Below are positions 9,657-58,390 of a stretch of DNA of 64,000 bases, one piece after another. Positions within the stretch are counted from its first letter, which is position 1. Each line of letters opens with the position of its first letter. A program made the translations under genes and the position numbers. The notes under the pieces were generated by a model. That model made no database searches. It was not told where the DNA came from and saw nothing but the letters and a program-made list of their open reading frames with translations. Source of the stretch: Candidatus Uhrbacteria bacterium RIFCSPLOWO2_01_FULL_47_17 (GTDB taxonomy: Bacteria; Patescibacteriota; Patescibacteriia; UBA9934; GWF2-40-263); contig MGEI01000003.1 of NCBI GenBank assembly GCA_001791305.1, forward strand, positions 112,872 to 176,871, in the 5' to 3' direction.

Positions 9657-9749
9657 GTGTCATTCCGACCGAGGAGTCATCGACGAGTGGAGGAATCTCG
9701 CATTTACAAGAGATCCCTCGGCTACGCTTCGCTTCGCTCGGGATGACAC
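9657..9749 (+). promoter_or_regulatory. Structured 5' leader of murC: long-range helix GTGTCATTCCGA / TCGGGATGACAC enclosing nested stems (CCGAGG/CCTCGG)
   Basis: 12 bp closing helix with one G-U pair, ending 7 nt before the murC ATG. No SD is visible. GCTTCGCTTCGCTC direct repeat in the 3' arm. Confidence 0.45.
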
Positions 9750-9755
9750 AAAAAT

Positions 9756-11141
9756 ATGCTTCTTGAAAAAAACCATTTTCATTTTGTTGGAATCGGAGGA
9801 ATCGGCATGTCCGCGCTTGCCAAGTTTTTGTTGTCCAAAGAAAAGCATGTGACCGGATCAGACGTCCATGATTCTGAGATGGTTCAAGATTTGAATAAAA
9901 AAGGTATTCAAGTAAATATCGGCCATGACAAGTCGCACGTCCTCGACGGTGTGGAGGTCGTCATCTATTCCTCCGCTGTCCCCTCGACCAACCCAGAACG
10001 AACTACTGCTCGAGAGCGGGGAATCCCAGAAGTCTCTTACGCCCAGTTCCTCGGTGAAGTCTCGAAAACCTTCTCGACGATTGTGGTCACAGGAACACAC
10101 GGTAAGAGCACAACAACCGCGCTCATCGGCCTCATGCTCGAAGCAGCCGGCTACGATCCAACGGTTCTCGTAGGATCGTTTGTGCCAACATTCCCAGATA
10201 AAAATCTCCGCCTCGGCAAAGGCAGATTCTTTGTGGTCGAAGGCTGCGAGTATCAGGCGAACATGTTGAATCTTCATCCGGAGATGATCGTGCTCACAAA
10301 CATCGAAGAAGACCACCTCGATTACTACCGCGACATCAACCATATCCGCGACACATTCCAGATCTTCGCCGATAAGTTGATTGGAAAAGGAATGATGATC
10401 CTGAACGCGGACGATGCCGAATCCATGAAATTGAAAGTAGAACGGCCGATAACGTACTGGATGCAAAGGACGGAAAAGGCGGAGAGGGCGGAAAGGAATT
10501 CATATGTCGCGTTGAATCGTGCAACCACGAAGGGTGTGCAGACTTTTGGTGTGAATCGAGACGAACTCCTCGGTCGACTCAAGCTCATCATCCCGGGCGA
10601 ACACAACGTCATGAACGCACTCGCCGCAACCGCGGCCGCCATGGAACTCGGCGTCCCATTCGAGACATGCGCGCGCGTCCTCGAAACGTTCCCAGGAATC
10701 TGGCGCCGCTTCGAGCGCGTCGGAACTTGGCGCGAGGCGGATGTCATCTCGGACTATGGTCACCATCCAACTGCGGTTGAGAAAACTGTGAGTGCCGCTC
10801 GCGAGTTTTTTCCAGGCCGAAGAATCGTCCTGTGTTTTCAACCGCATCAACACTCCCGAACAAAGTCTCTCTTCGATGGATTTGTCCACGCGCTCCAACT
10901 CGCGGACGAGACGGTGGTCGCCGAGATTTACGACGTCGCTGGCAGAAACGAAGAACACAATATGTCGTCAAGGTTGATTGTGGAGAAGATCAAGAAGGAA
11001 ACCCCAAACGCCCACGTCATGTATTCGGAAAACTTCGATGCGGTGAAGTCCGCCCTCGAACAGATCGTCCGATCGAACGATGTCCTGATTATAATGGGAG
11101 CGGGGGATATCGATTCAATCGCAAGAGACCTTACTTGTTGA
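9756..11141 (+). CDS. murC: UDP-N-acetylmuramate--L-alanine ligase MurC
   Basis: 461 aa. N-terminal HFVGIGGIGMSALA, P-loop TGTHGKSTTTAL, and Mur ligase middle and C-terminal domains. Confidence 0.9.
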   Translation: MLLEKNHFHFVGIGGIGMSALAKFLLSKEKHVTGSDVHDSEMVQDLNKKGIQVNIGHDKSHVLDGVEVVIYSSAVPSTNPERTTARERGIPEVSYAQFLGEVSKTFSTIVVTGTHGKSTTTALIGLMLEAAGYDPTVLVGSFVPTFPDKNLRLGKGRFFVVEGCEYQANMLNLHPEMIVLTNIEEDHLDYYRDINHIRDTFQIFADKLIGKGMMILNADDAESMKLKVERPITYWMQRTEKAERAERNSYVALNRATTKGVQTFGVNRDELLGRLKLIIPGEHNVMNALAATAAAMELGVPFETCARVLETFPGIWRRFERVGTWREADVISDYGHHPTAVEKTVSAAREFFPGRRIVLCFQPHQHSRTKSLFDGFVHALQLADETVVAEIYDVAGRNEEHNMSSRLIVEKIKKETPNAHVMYSENFDAVKSALEQIVRSNDVLIIMGAGDIDSIARDLTC

Positions 11142-11209: not shown

Positions 11210-11593
11210 ATGGCAGATCATTCGTTTTTTCTGAAGTTGTACCGCCACTTCATGCGTCACGATGGGACTGTGCTTGGAATCTTTTACATGACTCCAGACG
11301 GTCAAACACCGATTGAAGGCTTGTTCGTTCTTTCAAATCCGACTACGAGGCGTCGAGAAATTCTTTTTGATCCTTCGAAGTGGGAAGTCAAGACGGGTTT
11401 GGAACCGATGAAATTTTCTCCTTTCGAGGATGTTTTTTCCATCTGGCTTGGCCCTTCGTCCTCTGGAAACGGAGAAGATCTCCCACTTGCTTGTCGAGAT
11501 AACCTAAAGCCAAAGGATGGATCCGGACTTGCGTGGCCTGAGACGATTCTTCCTAAATTTGATCTTTGGATACGCGCAGATTGCCCTGACTAA
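11210..11593 (+). CDS. Hypothetical protein
   Basis: 127 aa with SD GAGGA upstream and its own terminator. No recognisable domain. First gene of the insertion between murC and murB. Confidence 0.4.
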   Translation: MADHSFFLKLYRHFMRHDGTVLGIFYMTPDGQTPIEGLFVLSNPTTRRREILFDPSKWEVKTGLEPMKFSPFEDVFSIWLGPSSSGNGEDLPLACRDNLKPKDGSGLAWPETILPKFDLWIRADCPD

Positions 11594-11594
11594 T

Positions 11595-11623
11595 CGACCG
11601 AAAACGGTCGATTTTTTCTTTTT
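11595..11623 (+). terminator. Rho-independent terminator (CGACCG-aaaa-CGGTCG-ATTTTTTCTTTTT) after the 127-aa gene
   Basis: 6 bp GC-rich stem plus a T-rich run. Confidence 0.7.
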
Positions 11624-11630
11624 GGAAACA

Positions 11631-11739
11631 TGTGTAGATACGGATTACAGATTAATACAGATAGGGATGACGTTTCCGAAAGACGTCTTTCAGAGCCGAA
11701 GATCTTCATCTGTATTAATCTGTAATCCGTATCTACACA
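11631..11739. repeat. Perfect 32 bp inverted repeat (TGTGTAGATACGGATTACAGATTAATACAGAT ... ATCTGTATTAATCTGTAATCCGTATCTACACA) with a 45 nt spacer; a MITE-like element or large cruciform
   Basis: The arms are exact reverse complements. The spacer has its own small GACG/CGTC hairpin. Located between the terminator of the 127-aa gene and the promoter of the first CTDC lipoprotein gene. No obvious target-site duplication. Confidence 0.85.
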
Positions 11740-11746
11740 CGCCCTG

Positions 11747-11775
11747 TTGACGTATCTAGGTTTTCCTGCTAAAAA
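11747..11775 (+). promoter_or_regulatory. Putative promoter (TTGACG-17-TAAAAA) for the first CTDC lipoprotein gene
   Basis: Lies directly after the 32 bp inverted repeat element, about 70 nt upstream of the SD+ATG. Confidence 0.4.
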
Positions 11776-11842: not shown

Positions 11843-13576
11843 ATGAACGTTCGTTTCACATCGATTTTGTTCAGACTCGCATGCGTTTTTCTTTGCGCGT
11901 GTTCGGACGACACCATTTCAGAAGTTCCGAGCCTTGATTTGTCCGGAGACGGAAGGGCGATCGACACCTCACCTGCTCCCGAGACCCAATCGGACACAGA
12001 TACGATCGAGGACGTGCAGCCAGATGTTGTCGACGCAAGCGTGGATGCGACGCCGGACGTGTTTGTTTGCAAAGACAATGCGTCTTGCGACACGAAAAAT
12101 CCTTGCACACAAGATTGGTGCAACGTGGGAACGGGCGAATGTCAGCATACGCCGCAGCCGGACAATATCTGTACAGACGGTGACGCCTGCACGGTGAATG
12201 ACATCTGCACCGCGTCCGGTCAGTGCTTTGGCGCAAAGCAGGTTGTGTGCAATGACAACAGTCCTTGTACGAAAGATTCCTGCGACAAGCTCTCTGGCTG
12301 CACGTTCGAACCGATCGATGCGTCTTGTACGGACAATGATGTTTGCACGAAGAACGATGCGTGCGTAGTCGGCGTCTGTGTCGGAACGAAGATCGCATGC
12401 AACGACGGCCTCGACTGCACCGAAGACTCTTGCGACAAGAATACAGGTTGCTCGACCGTGAAGCTGAACAATCTTCCGTGCGACGATGGCTCAGCGTGTA
12501 CAGTGAATGACTTGTGCGACAAGGGCGCGTGCAAAGGATCGAACATCAATTGTTCAGATACAAATCCTTGCACCCAAGATGCGTGCGACAAAGTGTCCGG
12601 ATGTTTTTCGACTCCCGCATCCGCTGGATCGAAGTGCACAGACGGAAACGCCTGTACGATCAACGATAACTGCCAGGATGCAAAATGCGTCTCCGGTTCA
12701 CAAAAAAACTGTGACGACAACAGTGTCTGCACGTCTGATTCTTGTGACGCTGCAAACGGTGCGTGTCTGAATCTACCGGTTGTTGGAGTGTTCTACTGCA
12801 ACGACAACAACGCCTGTACGACAAACGATTCGTGTACGCTCGGCGTGTGCACTGGAAAGATTTTGCAGTGCAACGATGGACTCGCTTGTACGCAAGATAC
12901 GTGCGGGGCGAATATCGGTTGCATGTACCTTGTTCAAGACAAATCGCCGTGCAATGACGGAGACGCGTGCACGATTGGCGACACCTGTTTCACAAACAAG
13001 TGTGAAGGTAAGGTGAAGACGTGCGAGGACAACAACGACTGCACAATCGATACGTGTGATTCCGCGGTTGGAAGCTGCAACTTCACGGCGAACGACGGCT
13101 ACTACTGCTCAGACGCAAATGCCTGCACAACGGGCGATGTCTGCAAAGGCACCAAGTGTAGCGGCGTTACCATCATCTGCAACGATGGCAACCTGTGTAC
13201 TTCCGACAGTTGCAACCAAAAACTCGGTTGCGTCTTTACCGGAACGCCAAACGCGCCTTGCGAAGACGGTGACCTCTGCACCACGGACGACATTTGCCAG
13301 CAAACCGTTTGCAAAGCAAAGCCGATTGTGTGCAATGACCAGAATACGTGCACAAAGGACAGTTGCAGCAAAGCAACCGGAAAATGTGTTTTTCAAACCT
13401 TGAACGACACAAACAAGTGCGACGACGATGACCTCTGCACGATCGCGGACATCTGTCTTGCGGGTCAGTGCAAAGGCTCTGTGAACGCTTGTGACGACAG
13501 TGATCCCTGCACCGTGGACGCATGCAATCCAAAAGATGGAAAATGCGATCACACAAAGAAACCCAACTGCCCATAG
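11843..13576 (+). CDS. Cysteine-rich lipoprotein with about 20 tandem Dictyostelium-type CTDC repeats (C-x-D-x-N-x-C-T-x-D-x-C-D-x-x-x-G-C)
   Basis: 577 aa. Lipoprotein signal peptide (FRLACVFLCAC) and SD GAGGAGG. The roughly 24 aa Cys-rich repeat recurs through the whole protein. Own promoter (TTGACG-17-TAAAAA) and terminator. Confidence 0.7.
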   Translation: MNVRFTSILFRLACVFLCACSDDTISEVPSLDLSGDGRAIDTSPAPETQSDTDTIEDVQPDVVDASVDATPDVFVCKDNASCDTKNPCTQDWCNVGTGECQHTPQPDNICTDGDACTVNDICTASGQCFGAKQVVCNDNSPCTKDSCDKLSGCTFEPIDASCTDNDVCTKNDACVVGVCVGTKIACNDGLDCTEDSCDKNTGCSTVKLNNLPCDDGSACTVNDLCDKGACKGSNINCSDTNPCTQDACDKVSGCFSTPASAGSKCTDGNACTINDNCQDAKCVSGSQKNCDDNSVCTSDSCDAANGACLNLPVVGVFYCNDNNACTTNDSCTLGVCTGKILQCNDGLACTQDTCGANIGCMYLVQDKSPCNDGDACTIGDTCFTNKCEGKVKTCEDNNDCTIDTCDSAVGSCNFTANDGYYCSDANACTTGDVCKGTKCSGVTIICNDGNLCTSDSCNQKLGCVFTGTPNAPCEDGDLCTTDDICQQTVCKAKPIVCNDQNTCTKDSCSKATGKCVFQTLNDTNKCDDDDLCTIADICLAGQCKGSVNACDDSDPCTVDACNPKDGKCDHTKKPNCP

Positions 13577-13581
13577 TTCTT

Positions 13582-13613
13582 GATCCTCATCTTGAGGATC
13601 TTTTTTGTTTTTT
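13582..13613 (+). terminator. Rho-independent terminator (GATCCTCA-tct-TGAGGATC-TTTTTTGTTTTTT) after the first CTDC lipoprotein gene
   Basis: 8 bp stem plus a long T-run. Confidence 0.75.
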
Positions 13614-13626
13614 GGTAGATATTTGG

Positions 13627-13655
13627 TTGACAGGCTCGGAAATTCTTGATACAAA
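13627..13655 (+). promoter_or_regulatory. Putative promoter (TTGACA-17-TACAAA) for the second CTDC lipoprotein gene
   Basis: Consensus -35 with 17 nt spacing to the -10, after the terminator of the first gene. Confidence 0.45.
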
Positions 13656-13698
13656 CAGGGGCACGATTTCTTGTGCATTTTACCTATGGAGGATCGTC

Positions 13699-15303
13699 AT
13701 GAGGCTCGTTTTTGCTCTTTTTTTCATCACAGCTTGTTCGGGTGAGTCGGACGTTTCCGTGCAAGGAGGAGCAGATGGACATTCGATCGATGTTTCGACG
13801 GATGCTCATGATGCGCTGATTGCAACCCAAGCGGACACAACGAACGAAACCGATCTGTTCGACGGTTCGGCGCGCGCACCGGATCCTGGTGAGTTTGGAT
13901 ATCCGTGCATCAAAAATGCGGAATGCAATGCTGGCTACTGCATCGAAACGCCAAATGGAAGTGTTTGTTCGAAGACATGTTCGAGTGATTGTCCGAACGG
14001 ATTCAAATGTTCCGGCGTCAGCAATTCAAGCACCGACATTGTGTTCATTTGTCTTTCCATGTTCAATCGTCTGTGTGATCCATGCAAAGAGCATAAGGAC
14101 TGTAACGAGATGAACAAGATCGGCAATCTTTGTCTGCGTGTCGGAAATAGCGGGAGCTTTTGTGGAGCTCAGTGTTTCATCTCAAACGGTGACGCGGATT
14201 GTCCGAACGGCTATACGTGTCAGTTTCTCACAGATGCAAAGACGAAGGTTTCGGGAGAACAGTGTGTGCCGAAAAGTGGAGCAACGTGTTCCTGTTCGAA
14301 ACGAGCGACACAACTCGCCCTTTCGACGGACTGCACGAACAAGAATGTGTTTGGGGTATGCTCGGGATCGCGCGTTTGCAAACCGGAAGGCCTCACAAAC
14401 TGCATCGGACAAATCCCGGAATCTGAGAGCTGTAACAAGCTTGATGATAATTGCGACGGTGAAACAGACAACATCGACGCAAGCGCGATTGGCGCAGGGT
14501 GCAAGCAAAGTAACGAGTTCGGAACGTGTCTTGGTATGTTTACCGGATGCGAAAAAGGCCAACCGCTTTGCAGTGCCGTGAAACCCGAGCCAGAAGTGTG
14601 CAACGGCAAAGACGACAACTGTAATGGGAAAACCGATGACGGCCTTTGCGACGACGGGAACGTCTGCACAACAGATCAGTGCAACACGGACGGTTCGTGT
14701 AAGCACACAAAATTGACCGGACCGCTTTGCGATGACGGCAATGTCTGTACAGCCGTTTCGGAATGTGCCGCCGGAGTTTGCAAAGGCGGAACCACGCTCG
14801 ATTGCGATGACAAGGACGCATGCTCAACCGATTGGTGTGATCCATTCACGGGTTGCAATCACAAGCCCGCTTCCGATGGCGCCTGTCTCGATGATGGGAA
14901 CGCTTGTACGCAAGATGTGTGCGCAAACGGCAAGTGTACGCATCCGAAGGTAAAGGACGGCAACGCCTGTCTCGACGAAGGAAACGTGTGTACAAAAGAT
15001 GTGTGCGATAATGGCGACTGTTCGCATATCGCGAATGCATCGCCATGCAATGACGACAATCAATGCACGCTCAATGACACCTGCAAAGACAAAACCTGCT
15101 CCGTCTCACTTCCAAAAGTCTGCAACGACGGCAACGCGTGTACGATTGATGGATGTGAGCCGGCAAAAGGATGCGTCTTCAAACCAAATCCATTTTCCAA
15201 TGATGGAACCGGTGTTCCGTGTCCTGAAGATGGCAATGCCTGCACAAATGACATCTGCAAAGGCGCCGTGTGCGCGCATGTGCCGATTCCAGGCTGCAAC
15301 TAG
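13699..15303 (+). CDS. Cysteine-rich lipoprotein: EGF/MopE-like Cys-rich N-terminal half plus CTDC-type repeats in the C-terminal half
   Basis: Start at MRLVFALFFITACS (lipobox ITAC) with SD GGAGGA, giving 534 aa. N-terminal half carries CxxxDDNCDGxTD-type putative metal-binding motifs. C-terminal half repeats CxDGNxCTxDxC. Own promoter (TTGACA-17-TACAAA) and terminator. Confidence 0.7.
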   Translation: MRLVFALFFITACSGESDVSVQGGADGHSIDVSTDAHDALIATQADTTNETDLFDGSARAPDPGEFGYPCIKNAECNAGYCIETPNGSVCSKTCSSDCPNGFKCSGVSNSSTDIVFICLSMFNRLCDPCKEHKDCNEMNKIGNLCLRVGNSGSFCGAQCFISNGDADCPNGYTCQFLTDAKTKVSGEQCVPKSGATCSCSKRATQLALSTDCTNKNVFGVCSGSRVCKPEGLTNCIGQIPESESCNKLDDNCDGETDNIDASAIGAGCKQSNEFGTCLGMFTGCEKGQPLCSAVKPEPEVCNGKDDNCNGKTDDGLCDDGNVCTTDQCNTDGSCKHTKLTGPLCDDGNVCTAVSECAAGVCKGGTTLDCDDKDACSTDWCDPFTGCNHKPASDGACLDDGNACTQDVCANGKCTHPKVKDGNACLDEGNVCTKDVCDNGDCSHIANASPCNDDNQCTLNDTCKDKTCSVSLPKVCNDGNACTIDGCEPAKGCVFKPNPFSNDGTGVPCPEDGNACTNDICKGAVCAHVPIPGCN

Positions 15304-58293: not shown

Positions 58294-58311
58294 AAAAGTG
58301 AAAGAGTCAAA
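58293..58311 (+). repeat. 19 nt repeat AAAAAGTGAAAGAGTCAAA, copy B (just after the wecG-like stop, in the gltX leader)
   Basis: Identical to 34522-34540. Part of a GTGAAA-iterated arm that can pair with ACTCTTTCACTTT about 55 nt downstream. Confidence 0.7.
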
Positions 58312-58390
58312 AAGTGAAGGATGTTTCTTTCTTTTTTGAAAAAATAGCTCCCACACAATCACTCTTCCACTCTTTCACTTTGTTTCTCTT

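What the first reader, a model, noticed from the sequence alone, without database searches (positions are those of the whole stretch)
11631..11739. Perfect 32 bp inverted repeat with a 45 nt spacer between a terminator and the promoter of a giant Cys-rich lipoprotein gene
TGTGTAGATACGGATTACAGATTAATACAGAT and its exact reverse complement flank a 45 nt spacer containing a small GACG/CGTC hairpin, giving a 109 nt element. A 32/32 match is far longer than a typical operator or terminator and implies recent origin or strong selection. Candidates are a MITE or solo terminal-inverted-repeat pair from an IS element, a cruciform-forming regulatory site for the downstream lipoprotein operon, or a recombination site. 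I do not recognise the ends as a known IS family, and no clear target-site duplication flanks it. It lies inside a roughly 4.2 kb segment that interrupts the normally contiguous murC-murB pair.
Basis: seen in the sequence. Interest (0 to 1): 0.7.

Follow-up and report, generated by a model that had tools for sequence, protein, structure and literature searches.

The report
Miniature palindromic mobile element in Uhrbacteria
The perfect 32-bp inverted repeat is one copy of a dispersed hairpin repeat family of candidate-phylum Uhrbacteria, and its arms are the same ones that elsewhere bracket a small nuclease gene (GxxExxY) which is present or absent at one site among close relatives, so it is most likely a gene-less relic of a small selfish element and not a regulator of the neighbouring lipoprotein gene.

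Summary
Window 11631-11662 and 11708-11739 are 32/32 complementary around a 45-nt spacer, and the locus is identical in several independent assemblies.

It is not a locus-specific operator. The same arm recurs in another Uhrbacteria genome (RIFOXYB2_FULL_45_11) and related metagenome contigs, in at least 23 distinct ~109-nt copies. Their spacer is also conserved, and a 101-nt sister family exists. Copies sit in tight junctions: stop codon to next ATG, or terminator T-run to promoter, as in the window.

In one locus the same arms flank a 127-aa PD-(D/E)XK "GxxExxY" gene, giving a 478-nt long form. Four other distant GxxExxY genes carry their own 27-38-nt bracketing inverted repeats.

The long form is present or absent at one exact site (TTTTTT|ATG of recQ) among close relatives. 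The adjacent ~50 nt of recQ groups occupied alleles together across clades (Fisher p=2e-4), as a co-conversion tract would.

No target-site duplication was found, and the window holds only one copy.

Best reading: an ORF-less, MITE-like miniature of an inverted-repeat-bounded nuclease cassette, built like 23S rRNA intervening sequences. How it moves is inferred, not shown.

The parts
11592..11623 (+). Intrinsic terminator of the upstream 127-aa orphan ORF (stem-loop 11592-11613 plus T-run). It is context, not part of the element: family copies often lie directly after such a T-run.
   Evidence: Terminator scan. Recurrent T-run next to element ends in L010, L020, L026, L031 and at the recQ empty site.
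11623..11630 (.). Weakly conserved outer flank (TGGAAACA; family consensus (A)TTGGGAAC(A/G)) outside the perfect arm.
   Evidence: Position counts over 63 arm ends. The nhmmer family match starts at 11623.
11631..11662 (+). Left arm TGTGTAGATACGGATTACAGATTAATACAGAT. The family-invariant core starts at GTAG (11634). It contains the tandem decamers GATTACAGAT|TAATACAGAT.
   Evidence: Arm is 100% identical to the left arm of the GxxExxY long form L004 4882-4913. 19 of 32 stem pairs are invariant in 20 copies.
11663..11707 (+). 45-nt spacer, homologous to the family spacer AGGGATGACG..GAAAAACGTTTTTC..CCGAATATCTCC. The central palindrome 11678-11691 (GAAAGACGTCTTTC) differs from the consensus by a compensatory A>G / T>C pair.
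   Evidence: Alignments. Pair 66/71 (AU:16, GC:1, the GC being the window).
11708..11739 (+). Right arm, the exact reverse complement of the left arm.
11740..11744 (.). Outer flank on the right (CGCCC; family consensus YGTTTMC), poorly matching here.
11747..11775 (+). Promoter-like TTGACG-17 nt-TAAAAA of the Cys-rich lipoprotein gene, 7 nt outside the arm. Context; a TTGACA box 7-10 nt outside the arm also occurs at L019, L020, L024, L026 and L027.
   Evidence: Read from the sequence and flanks. Not called by the promoter scan.

Best explanation
The 109-nt element is a gene-less, MITE-like miniature member of a palindromic mobile-element family of Candidatus Uhrbacteria (CPR/Patescibacteria). 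The ORF-bearing form of this family is a ~480-nt cassette in which the same two arms bracket a 127-aa PD-(D/E)XK 'GxxExxY' nuclease gene.

Shown:
- The family exists and is dispersed.
- The short and long forms share arms, plus 7-9 nt of inner sequence on each side.
- The long form is present or absent at one exact site among close relatives, and recombinant flanks accompany it.
- Copies occupy junctions between functional units, such as stop|ATG and terminator|promoter.

Inferred:
- The cassette spreads as a selfish gene, with the nuclease acting like a free-standing homing endonuclease or a structure-specific nuclease on the arms.
- The long stem makes insertions harmless because it folds out of the transcript, and may be cut by RNase III as in 23S rRNA intervening sequences.
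- Short forms are mobilised in trans.

In the window the copy sits between a terminator and a promoter. It is most likely a passenger with no dedicated role for the lipoprotein gene.
For: The exact 32-mer occurs in 4 contigs of Uhrbacteria RIFOXYB2_FULL_45_11, the only species hit among the one-per-species genomes scanned. A 20-mer core finds 27 metagenome loci.

From these I extracted 23 distinct short copies of 89-115 nt (mode 108-110). Their spacer is conserved and occurs in both orientations. A 101-nt sister family has six distinct copies.

L004 4882-5359 carries the same arms around a 127-aa ORF. That ORF matches PF13366 (2.6e-27) and TIGR04256 GxxExxY (7e-29). D71, E81 and K83 are invariant. 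The structure model has pLDDT 94.5 and a PD-(D/E)XK fold, with hits to Cas4, lambda exonuclease, Hjc and I-Bth0305I.

Bracketing inverted repeats are highly significant for L004, L049, L050, L051 and L052 (z = 10-20 against shuffles). L063 also has one: 27 nt, 93% complementary. The sister short family has the arms of the L050 cassette.

The site is empty, GCGTATTTTTT|ATG, in L062 (RecQ 98% identical to the occupied allele), L060/L061 and L058/L059 (the window's own organism). The P0046 contig is also empty by its gene table. The site is occupied in L004/L039-48 and in L049.

Within the first 45-60 nt of recQ, informative sites group the two occupied alleles 9-10 to 2-3. Elsewhere the ratio is about 46 to 143 the other way (Fisher p = 2e-4).

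At least 10 of 24 copies fill a stop-to-ATG gap with 3-13 nt on each side.

Compensatory changes occur in the arms: position 23 shows GC, AU and UA pairs, and L019b has two double changes. The window's central palindrome also carries one.
Against: - No target-site duplication is seen.
- The window holds a single copy, and about 30 kb more of the same organism holds none. Mobility within this genome is therefore not shown.
- No empty site was found for any short copy.
- Only one long form with these arms was seen, and it is syntenic in every genome that has it.
- GxxExxY has no demonstrated activity, and a lone PD-(D/E)XK nuclease cannot by itself carry out transposition.
- Three GxxExxY genes on plasmids of cultured bacteria lack bracketing repeats.
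- Overall covariation is not above the shuffled control.
- The co-conversion signal rests on one locus and five sequences.
Confidence: 0.7

Rival explanations
1. A host-beneficial intercistronic RNA element of the REP/BIME/ERIC type. Transcribed within operons, the long stem would act as an mRNA stabiliser, an insulator or an RNase III processing site. It would be kept by selection and not by mobility, and the GxxExxY gene would merely have lodged in one copy's loop.
For: Many copies lie between co-directional genes 3-13 nt from the stop and start codons. The stem core is almost invariant and shows some compensatory changes. The arms of the long form stay complementary in species where they have diverged in sequence (L049, L050).
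Against: Copy number differs sharply between related genomes: at least 29 copies versus 1 in about 95 kb sampled. The window copy lies between a terminator and a promoter, where it may be little transcribed. No gene class is shared among the neighbours. GxxExxY genes with quite different arm sequences have the same bracket architecture, which ties the repeat to the gene.
Confidence: 0.15
2. A REPIN-like doublet mobilised by a RAYT (IS200/IS605-type Y1 transposase), or a PATE of an IS200/IS605 element, which would explain the missing target-site duplication.
For: There is no target-site duplication. The invariant part of each arm begins with GTAG, the REP 'head'. The total size is about 110 nt and the whole element folds as a hairpin in ssDNA.
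Against: A single arm does not fold on itself (-0.2 kcal/mol, z = 0.45), whereas REP units are individually palindromic. The only ORF found inside these arms is a PD-(D/E)XK protein, not a Y1 transposase.
Confidence: 0.08
3. A locus-specific regulatory or recombination site: an operator or cruciform controlling the Cys-rich lipoprotein operon, or a site for a site-specific recombinase.
For: It sits 7 nt upstream of a -35-like TTGACG box of the lipoprotein gene. The perfect arms suggest constraint.
Against: The same element lies next to unrelated genes in at least 23 other places. The 45-nt spacer disfavours cruciform extrusion (established knowledge). No recombinase gene is adjacent.
Confidence: 0.04

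Closest known systems
23S rRNA intervening sequences (IVS) of Coxiella, Leptospira and Salmonella
   Same: The architecture matches: terminal complementary sequences form a ~28-bp stem around either nothing (83-112-nt ORF-less IVS) or a ~120-130-aa ORF of unknown function (428-760 nt). They have long been suspected to be relics of mobile elements. The Coxiella IVS carries tandem GACAGAT heptamers next to the stem (PMC4990558; PMC2672173). The arms here carry tandem (T/A)ACAGAT units.
   Different: The element here is not in an rRNA gene; it lies between protein-coding genes. The ORF is a PD-(D/E)XK GxxExxY protein, not the four-helix-bundle S23p. RNase III excision has not been tested. The heptamer likeness is taken from the paper's text and was not aligned.
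Bacterial MITEs, especially Correia (CREE/NEMIS) elements of Neisseria and RUP of Streptococcus pneumoniae
   Same: About 100-150 nt with long terminal inverted repeats, non-coding, tens of copies, intergenic, often co-transcribed with neighbours, and hairpin-forming. This comparison rests on my own knowledge of these families.
   Different: There is no target-site duplication (Correia elements duplicate TA). The ORF-bearing relative encodes a small PD-(D/E)XK nuclease, not a DDE transposase. There is no sequence similarity.
Free-standing homing endonuclease genes (e.g. T4 seg/mob genes) and PD-(D/E)XK homing endonucleases (I-Ssp6803I, I-Bth0305I)
   Same: The long form is a small nuclease gene wedged between conserved genes. 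It is present or absent at one exact site among close relatives, with a short tract of foreign flanking sequence. I-Bth0305I is among the fold matches.
   Different: Homing endonuclease genes are not bracketed by long inverted repeats and do not spawn dispersed ORF-less copies. Cleavage of the empty site is untested.
REP/REPIN elements with RAYT transposases
   Same: GTAG at the outer end of each arm, a hairpin-forming doublet of about 110 nt, no target-site duplication, extragenic location.
   Different: The arms are not individually palindromic. No RAYT is known for this family.

Membership tests
MITE (miniature inverted-repeat transposable element) | Terminal inverted repeats | tested here: met
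   32/32 complementary arms. The family stem is 92.7% paired across 20 copies.
MITE (miniature inverted-repeat transposable element) | Small and non-coding | tested here: met
   109 nt. Only spurious overlapping ORFs are present. No Rfam family reaches threshold.
MITE (miniature inverted-repeat transposable element) | Many dispersed copies within a genome | tested here: inconclusive
   Met in the related genome RIFOXYB2_FULL_45_11 and its metagenome: 23 + 6 distinct copies. In the window's own organism there is 1 copy in 64 kb and none in about 30 kb more.
MITE (miniature inverted-repeat transposable element) | Target-site duplication flanking each copy | tested here: not met
   No direct repeat appears at the flanks of 23 copies, nor at the long form's junction compared with four empty sites.
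MITE (miniature inverted-repeat transposable element) | Autonomous partner with the same ends encoding a transposase | tested here: inconclusive
   A long form with the same arms exists, but it encodes a 127-aa PD-(D/E)XK GxxExxY protein of unknown activity.
MITE (miniature inverted-repeat transposable element) | Insertion polymorphism (occupied versus empty sites) | tested here: inconclusive
   Shown for the long form at the recQ site. No empty site was found for any short copy.
23S rRNA intervening sequence | Located in helix 25 or 45 of a 23S rRNA gene | tested here: not met
   The window has no rRNA match. The element lies between protein-coding genes.
23S rRNA intervening sequence | Terminal complementary sequences forming a long stem around an optional ~120-130-aa ORF | tested here: met
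23S rRNA intervening sequence | Excision by RNase III | not testable with these tools
   Needs RNA data or an in vitro assay.
REP/REPIN-RAYT | Each repeat unit is itself an imperfect palindrome with a GTAG head | tested here: not met
   The GTAG head is present, but a single arm does not fold (-0.2 kcal/mol, z = 0.45).
REP/REPIN-RAYT | A RAYT gene flanked by the repeats in the same genome | not testable with these tools
Free-standing homing endonuclease gene (applies to the long form only) | Nuclease ORF present or absent at one conserved site, with co-converted flanks | tested here: met
   Empty and occupied alleles. In the first 45-60 nt, informative sites group the occupied alleles 9-10 to 2-3, against about 46 to 143 elsewhere (p = 2e-4).
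Free-standing homing endonuclease gene (applies to the long form only) | The enzyme cleaves the empty allele | not testable with these tools
   Biochemistry is required.

The most novel reading that the evidence does not exclude
Inverted-repeat-bounded GxxExxY cassettes may be an unrecognised class of small selfish elements. In this reading a free-standing PD-(D/E)XK endonuclease gene is wrapped in a long stem that lets the host transcript fold the insert out, or lets RNase III excise it. That would be the same design as 23S rRNA intervening sequences. The elements would invade exact stop|ATG or T-run|ATG junctions by homing-like recombination and shed ORF-less hairpin copies that multiply like MITEs. 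It would give a function to the large, unexplained PF13366/TIGR04256 family and an origin for rRNA IVSs.
Probability: 0.3. Interest if true: 0.8.

Novelty: new variant of a known kind. Interest (0 to 1): 0.6.

Why it matters
Candidate-phyla-radiation bacteria have tiny, densely packed genomes and few described mobile elements. Here one genome carries dozens of copies of a hairpin element squeezed into the few nucleotides between genes.

The shared arms link that repeat to GxxExxY (PF13366). This protein family is widespread and often has several copies per genome, yet it is listed as 'function unknown' (PMC3424549). The empty and occupied recQ alleles give a concrete, testable substrate for its activity.

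The architecture also offers a possible origin for the long-puzzling 23S rRNA intervening sequences.

For annotating this window, the practical message is that the repeat should be labelled as a repeat or mobile-element remnant. It should not be labelled as a regulator of the lipoprotein operon.

Tried and rejected
- **Rfam.** Nothing reached gathering thresholds across the window. In the permissive search only sub-threshold plant miRNA-precursor models matched, which are generic long hairpins.
- **Viral contigs.** Two hits (L032, L033) are 19-21-nt chance matches inside coding sequence. L030 is a 25-nt match inside a PAS-domain gene.
- **Split Shine-Dalgarno idea.** I tested whether the hairpin brings an upstream SD next to the downstream ATG. 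Only 2 of 10 intercistronic copies have an SD upstream, and recQ lacks an SD even at empty sites. Rejected.
- **G:U versus A:C bias of arm mismatches on the transcribed strand.** There were too few mismatches to say anything.
- **Simulated empty junctions for all 31 short or long copies against all fetched loci.** No empty allele was found.
- **Homologues of the upstream 127-aa ORF, to locate the orthologous site in relatives.** It is an orphan of this species.
- **Back-translated scan for GxxExxY loci in viral contigs.** The alignment was too divergent to use.
- **HGT argument from element versus gene identity.** The window copy is 83% identical on average to the other genome's copies (best 89%). 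Those copies average 83% among themselves, and recQ DNA is roughly 80% identical. The comparison is not decisive.
- **Literature.** Searches on GxxExxY, PDDEXK_3, MITEs in CPR, Uhrbacteria repeats and IVS plus nuclease found no description of this association.

Full report
**1. The observation**

Window 11631-11662 (TGTGTAGATACGGATTACAGATTAATACAGAT) and 11708-11739 are exact reverse complements separated by 45 nt. No dinucleotide-preserving shuffle of the window gives any match to the arm. The region folds at -88 kcal/mol as RNA (z = -11.9) and at -36 kcal/mol as single-stranded DNA (z = -13).

The locus is byte-identical in independent NCBI, ENA and JGI assemblies. In one sister assembly an N-gap falls inside the hairpin. 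The sequence is therefore real and not an assembly artefact.

The window is MGEQ01000002.1 of Candidatus Uhrbacteria bacterium RIFCSPHIGHO2_02_FULL_47_44.

**2. Local context**

The gene order is:
- SHMT (minus strand)
- an unannotated ORF
- murC, 9756-11141
- a 127-aa orphan ORF, 11210-11593
- an intrinsic terminator, 11592-11613, with a T-run
- the element
- a promoter-like TTGACG-17-TAAAAA, 11747-11775
- two Cys-rich Dicty_CTDC-repeat proteins, 11843-13576 and 13522-15303
- murB, then secA

The element therefore fills most of the roughly 120-nt gap between a terminator and a promoter. It is the only copy in the 64-kb window, both by exact or near-exact search and by family profile. It matches no Rfam family.

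**3. It belongs to a dispersed family**

The exact 32-mer occurs in four contigs of a different species, Candidatus Uhrbacteria bacterium RIFOXYB2_FULL_45_11. No other representative genome was hit. A 20-nt core finds 27 metagenome loci, mostly the IMG copy of that MAG and one groundwater metagenome.

From these I extracted 23 distinct short copies of 89-115 nt, with a mode of 108-110 nt. Both the arms and the spacer are homologous across copies. The consensus spacer is AGGGATGACGTGTCTGAAAAACGTTTTTCGGAACCGAATATCTCC, and it occurs in both orientations relative to the flanking genes.

Because the spacer is conserved, the short form multiplied as a unit. The copies are not independent deletion scars.

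The invariant core of the arm is GTAGATACGGATTACAGAT-N-AATACAGAT. It contains tandem ~10-nt units ending in ACAGAT. The three outermost bases, which are perfect in the window, pair in fewer than half of the copies. A weak outer flank, (A)TTGGGAAC(A/G) / YGTTYCC, extends the family match to 11623-11744.

A second family of 101 nt, with arms GAGGTACAGATTACAGAT..ATACAGATATACAAAT and a conserved 6x6 internal loop, is interspersed in the same contigs.

The window copy is as similar to the other genome's copies (mean 83%, best 89%) as those copies are to each other (mean 83%).

**4. Where copies sit**

At least 10 of 24 copies exactly fill the gap between a stop codon (3-13 nt away) and the ATG of the next co-directional gene (6-13 nt away). 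Others follow a terminator T-run or precede a TTGACA box, as in the window.

I tested whether the hairpin reunites a displaced Shine-Dalgarno sequence with the start codon. Only 2 of 10 cases fit. recQ in these organisms has no SD even without the element; a U-run abuts the ATG.

**5. The arms also bracket a gene**

In L004 (identical to L018 and L039-48) the same left arm (32/32) and right arm (31/32) enclose 414 nt. That interval holds a 127-aa ORF which matches PF13366 PDDEXK_3 (2.6e-27) and TIGR04256 GxxExxY (7e-29).

Similarity between the long and short forms continues inward for 9 nt on the left (AGrGATAAC) and 7 nt on the right (ATCTAC).

The protein family has invariant D71, E81 and K83. 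Its structure model is confident (pLDDT 94.5). It is a minimal PD-(D/E)XK nuclease fold resembling Cas4, lambda exonuclease, archaeal Hjc resolvases and the homing endonuclease I-Bth0305I. The only hint from sequence search against solved structures is T7 endonuclease I, at E = 0.096. A survey of the superfamily lists its function as unknown (PMC3424549).

**6. The bracket is a property of a branch of the gene family, not of one locus**

| Locus | Identity to P0001 | Neighbouring genes | Bracketing repeat |
|---|---|---|---|
| L049 | 81% (orthologue) | rhodanese / recQ | arms kept, 29-31 of 32 positions conserved |
| L050 | 60% | rhodanese / (contig end) | 32 nt, 91% complementary |
| L051 | 47% | Fer4 gene / CCG gene | 36 nt |
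| L052 | 43% | T2SSE / T2SSF | 38 nt |
| L063 | 40% | secD / metK | 27 nt, 93% complementary |

These repeats differ in sequence but all lie tightly around the ORF and are built of short tandem motifs (TACAGAT, ACGAAT). For L004, L049, L050, L051 and L052 the bracket scores z = 10-20 against shuffled flanks. L063 was found separately.

L053 (38% identity) has a 111-nt ORF-less hairpin directly upstream of the gene and a third arm after it. The arms of the 101-nt sister family are those of the L050 cassette.

Three GxxExxY genes on plasmids of cultured bacteria have no bracket. The feature is therefore not universal in the family.

**7. Evidence that the long form moves**

The long form always lies between a rhodanese gene and recQ (13 contigs). 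Using RecQ homologues, I recovered the same site in relatives.

The site is empty in:
- L062, whose RecQ is 98% identical to the occupied allele over the N-terminal half
- L060/L061, 96.5% identical
- L058/L059, the window's own organism, 94% identical
- the P0046 contig, judged by its gene table; its RecQ is 98.5% identical to that of the occupied L049

The empty junction reads GCGTATTTTTT|ATG. The occupied junction reads GCGTATTTTTT|TG[arm...arm]CCCAACATCAT|ATG. No duplication is present.

Occupied and empty alleles thus occur in both RecQ clades. In the first 45-60 nt of recQ next to the cassette, informative sites group the two occupied alleles together, 9-10 against 2-3. In the remaining ~960 nt the ratio is about 46 against 143 in favour of clade membership (Fisher p = 2e-4). 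About 25 nt on the upstream side is also locally divergent.

This is the signature of a cassette transferred between lineages by homologous recombination with a short co-conversion tract, as in intron-less homing. Independent precise losses would not produce it.

**8. What is not shown**

- No empty site was found for any short copy.
- The window's organism shows one copy in about 95 kb sampled.
- No target-site duplication exists.
- Covariation in the stem is real at a few positions but does not exceed the shuffled control overall. The positions are: arm position 23 with GC, AU and UA pairs; two double changes in L019b; and one in the window's central palindrome.
- The nuclease's activity is unknown.

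**9. Mechanism: what I commit to and how firmly**

- *Firm (about 0.9).* The element is a copy of a dispersed palindromic repeat family. It is not a locus-specific operator.
- *Firm (about 0.85).* It shares its ends with a GxxExxY cassette.
- *Moderate (about 0.5).* The cassette behaves as a selfish, homing-like gene.
- *Weak (about 0.3).* The nuclease also mobilises the short copies, and the stem neutralises insertions at the RNA level through RNase III, as in rRNA intervening sequences.

With a 45-nt loop, hairpins are expected in RNA or in transiently single-stranded DNA, not as cruciforms in duplex DNA. This last point rests on established knowledge.

**10. Comparison with known elements**

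The closest architectural match is the 23S rRNA intervening sequence. It has a 28-bp terminal stem, ORF-less (83-112 nt) and ORF-bearing (428-760 nt) versions, an ORF of about 120-130 aa of unknown function, and tandem GACAGAT heptamers in Coxiella. It has long been suspected of mobility (PMC4990558, PMC2672173). However, the location and the ORF family both differ here.

The element works like a MITE but fails the target-site-duplication criterion. It has a REP-like GTAG head, but its arms are not self-palindromic. I found no paper describing the association between GxxExxY genes and bracketing inverted repeats. That search covers open-access text only.

**11. Verdict**

The finding is real. 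The window copy on its own is an ordinary repeat remnant. What it led to, a small nuclease cassette with inverted-repeat ends and a homing-like footprint, is the interesting part and deserves a systematic survey.

Noticed in passing
window 9657-9750 (+); L003 324-374: A second, unrelated palindromic element (TGTGTCATTCCGACCGAGGAGTCATCGACGAG...CTCGGGATGACACA) ends 5 nt before the murC ATG. 51 nt of it are 86% identical to a stretch in the other Uhrbacteria genome, where it also abuts a start codon. No Rfam match.
   Followed up: partly
L060 9940-10003; L062 2700-2755; L058 9950-10003: recQ in these Uhrbacteria has a TTGACA-17-TAAACT promoter. Its leader ends in a terminator-like hairpin plus U-run that directly abuts the ATG, with no Shine-Dalgarno sequence. 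It could be an attenuator or an SD-independent start, and it is also the exact insertion point of the cassette.
   Followed up: partly
L002 3716-3816; L005 69-169; L013 151-251; L014 4877-4977; L020 7784-7900; L031 8950-9050: The 101-nt sister repeat family has a conserved asymmetric 6x6 internal loop (AAAAGA opposite GGCGRC) in the stem, kept in both orientations. This suggests a specific recognition feature and not a plain terminal inverted repeat.
   Followed up: partly
L010 500-650 and 1590-1740: Two solo right arms, each with the end of the spacer, lie inside a duplicated ~150-nt upstream region that carries a TTGACA-17-TAGTCT promoter in front of two paralogous genes. A half element appears to have been co-opted or duplicated along with a promoter.
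   Followed up: no
L053 1843-1953 and 2433-2452: An ORF-less 111-nt hairpin sits immediately upstream of a GxxExxY gene, and a third arm follows the gene. This short and long arrangement lies side by side within a polysaccharide-synthesis operon of an unrelated organism.
   Followed up: no
L063 557-4408: A secD-secF pair is separated by an inverted-repeat-bounded GxxExxY cassette plus metK. The cassette starts 0-1 nt after the secD stop codon and ends 3 nt before the metK ATG.
   Followed up: no
L058 versus L059, 14900-22154: Two strains of the window's organism differ downstream of recQ. One carries a ParE toxin, TPR and housekeeping genes. The other carries a block with Phage_CRI, Bro-N, HTH and DNA methylase genes, which looks like an integrated element.
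   Followed up: no
window 58295-58381: Another imperfect inverted repeat: 23-nt arms, 87% complementary, 41-nt spacer, rich in AAAGTGA motifs.
   Followed up: no
window 11843-15303: Two adjacent Cys-rich Dicty_CTDC-repeat proteins (577 and 593 aa) whose ORFs overlap by 55 nt (13522-13576). The first has a lipoprotein-like signal. Together with a species-specific orphan ORF they separate murC from murB.
   Followed up: no
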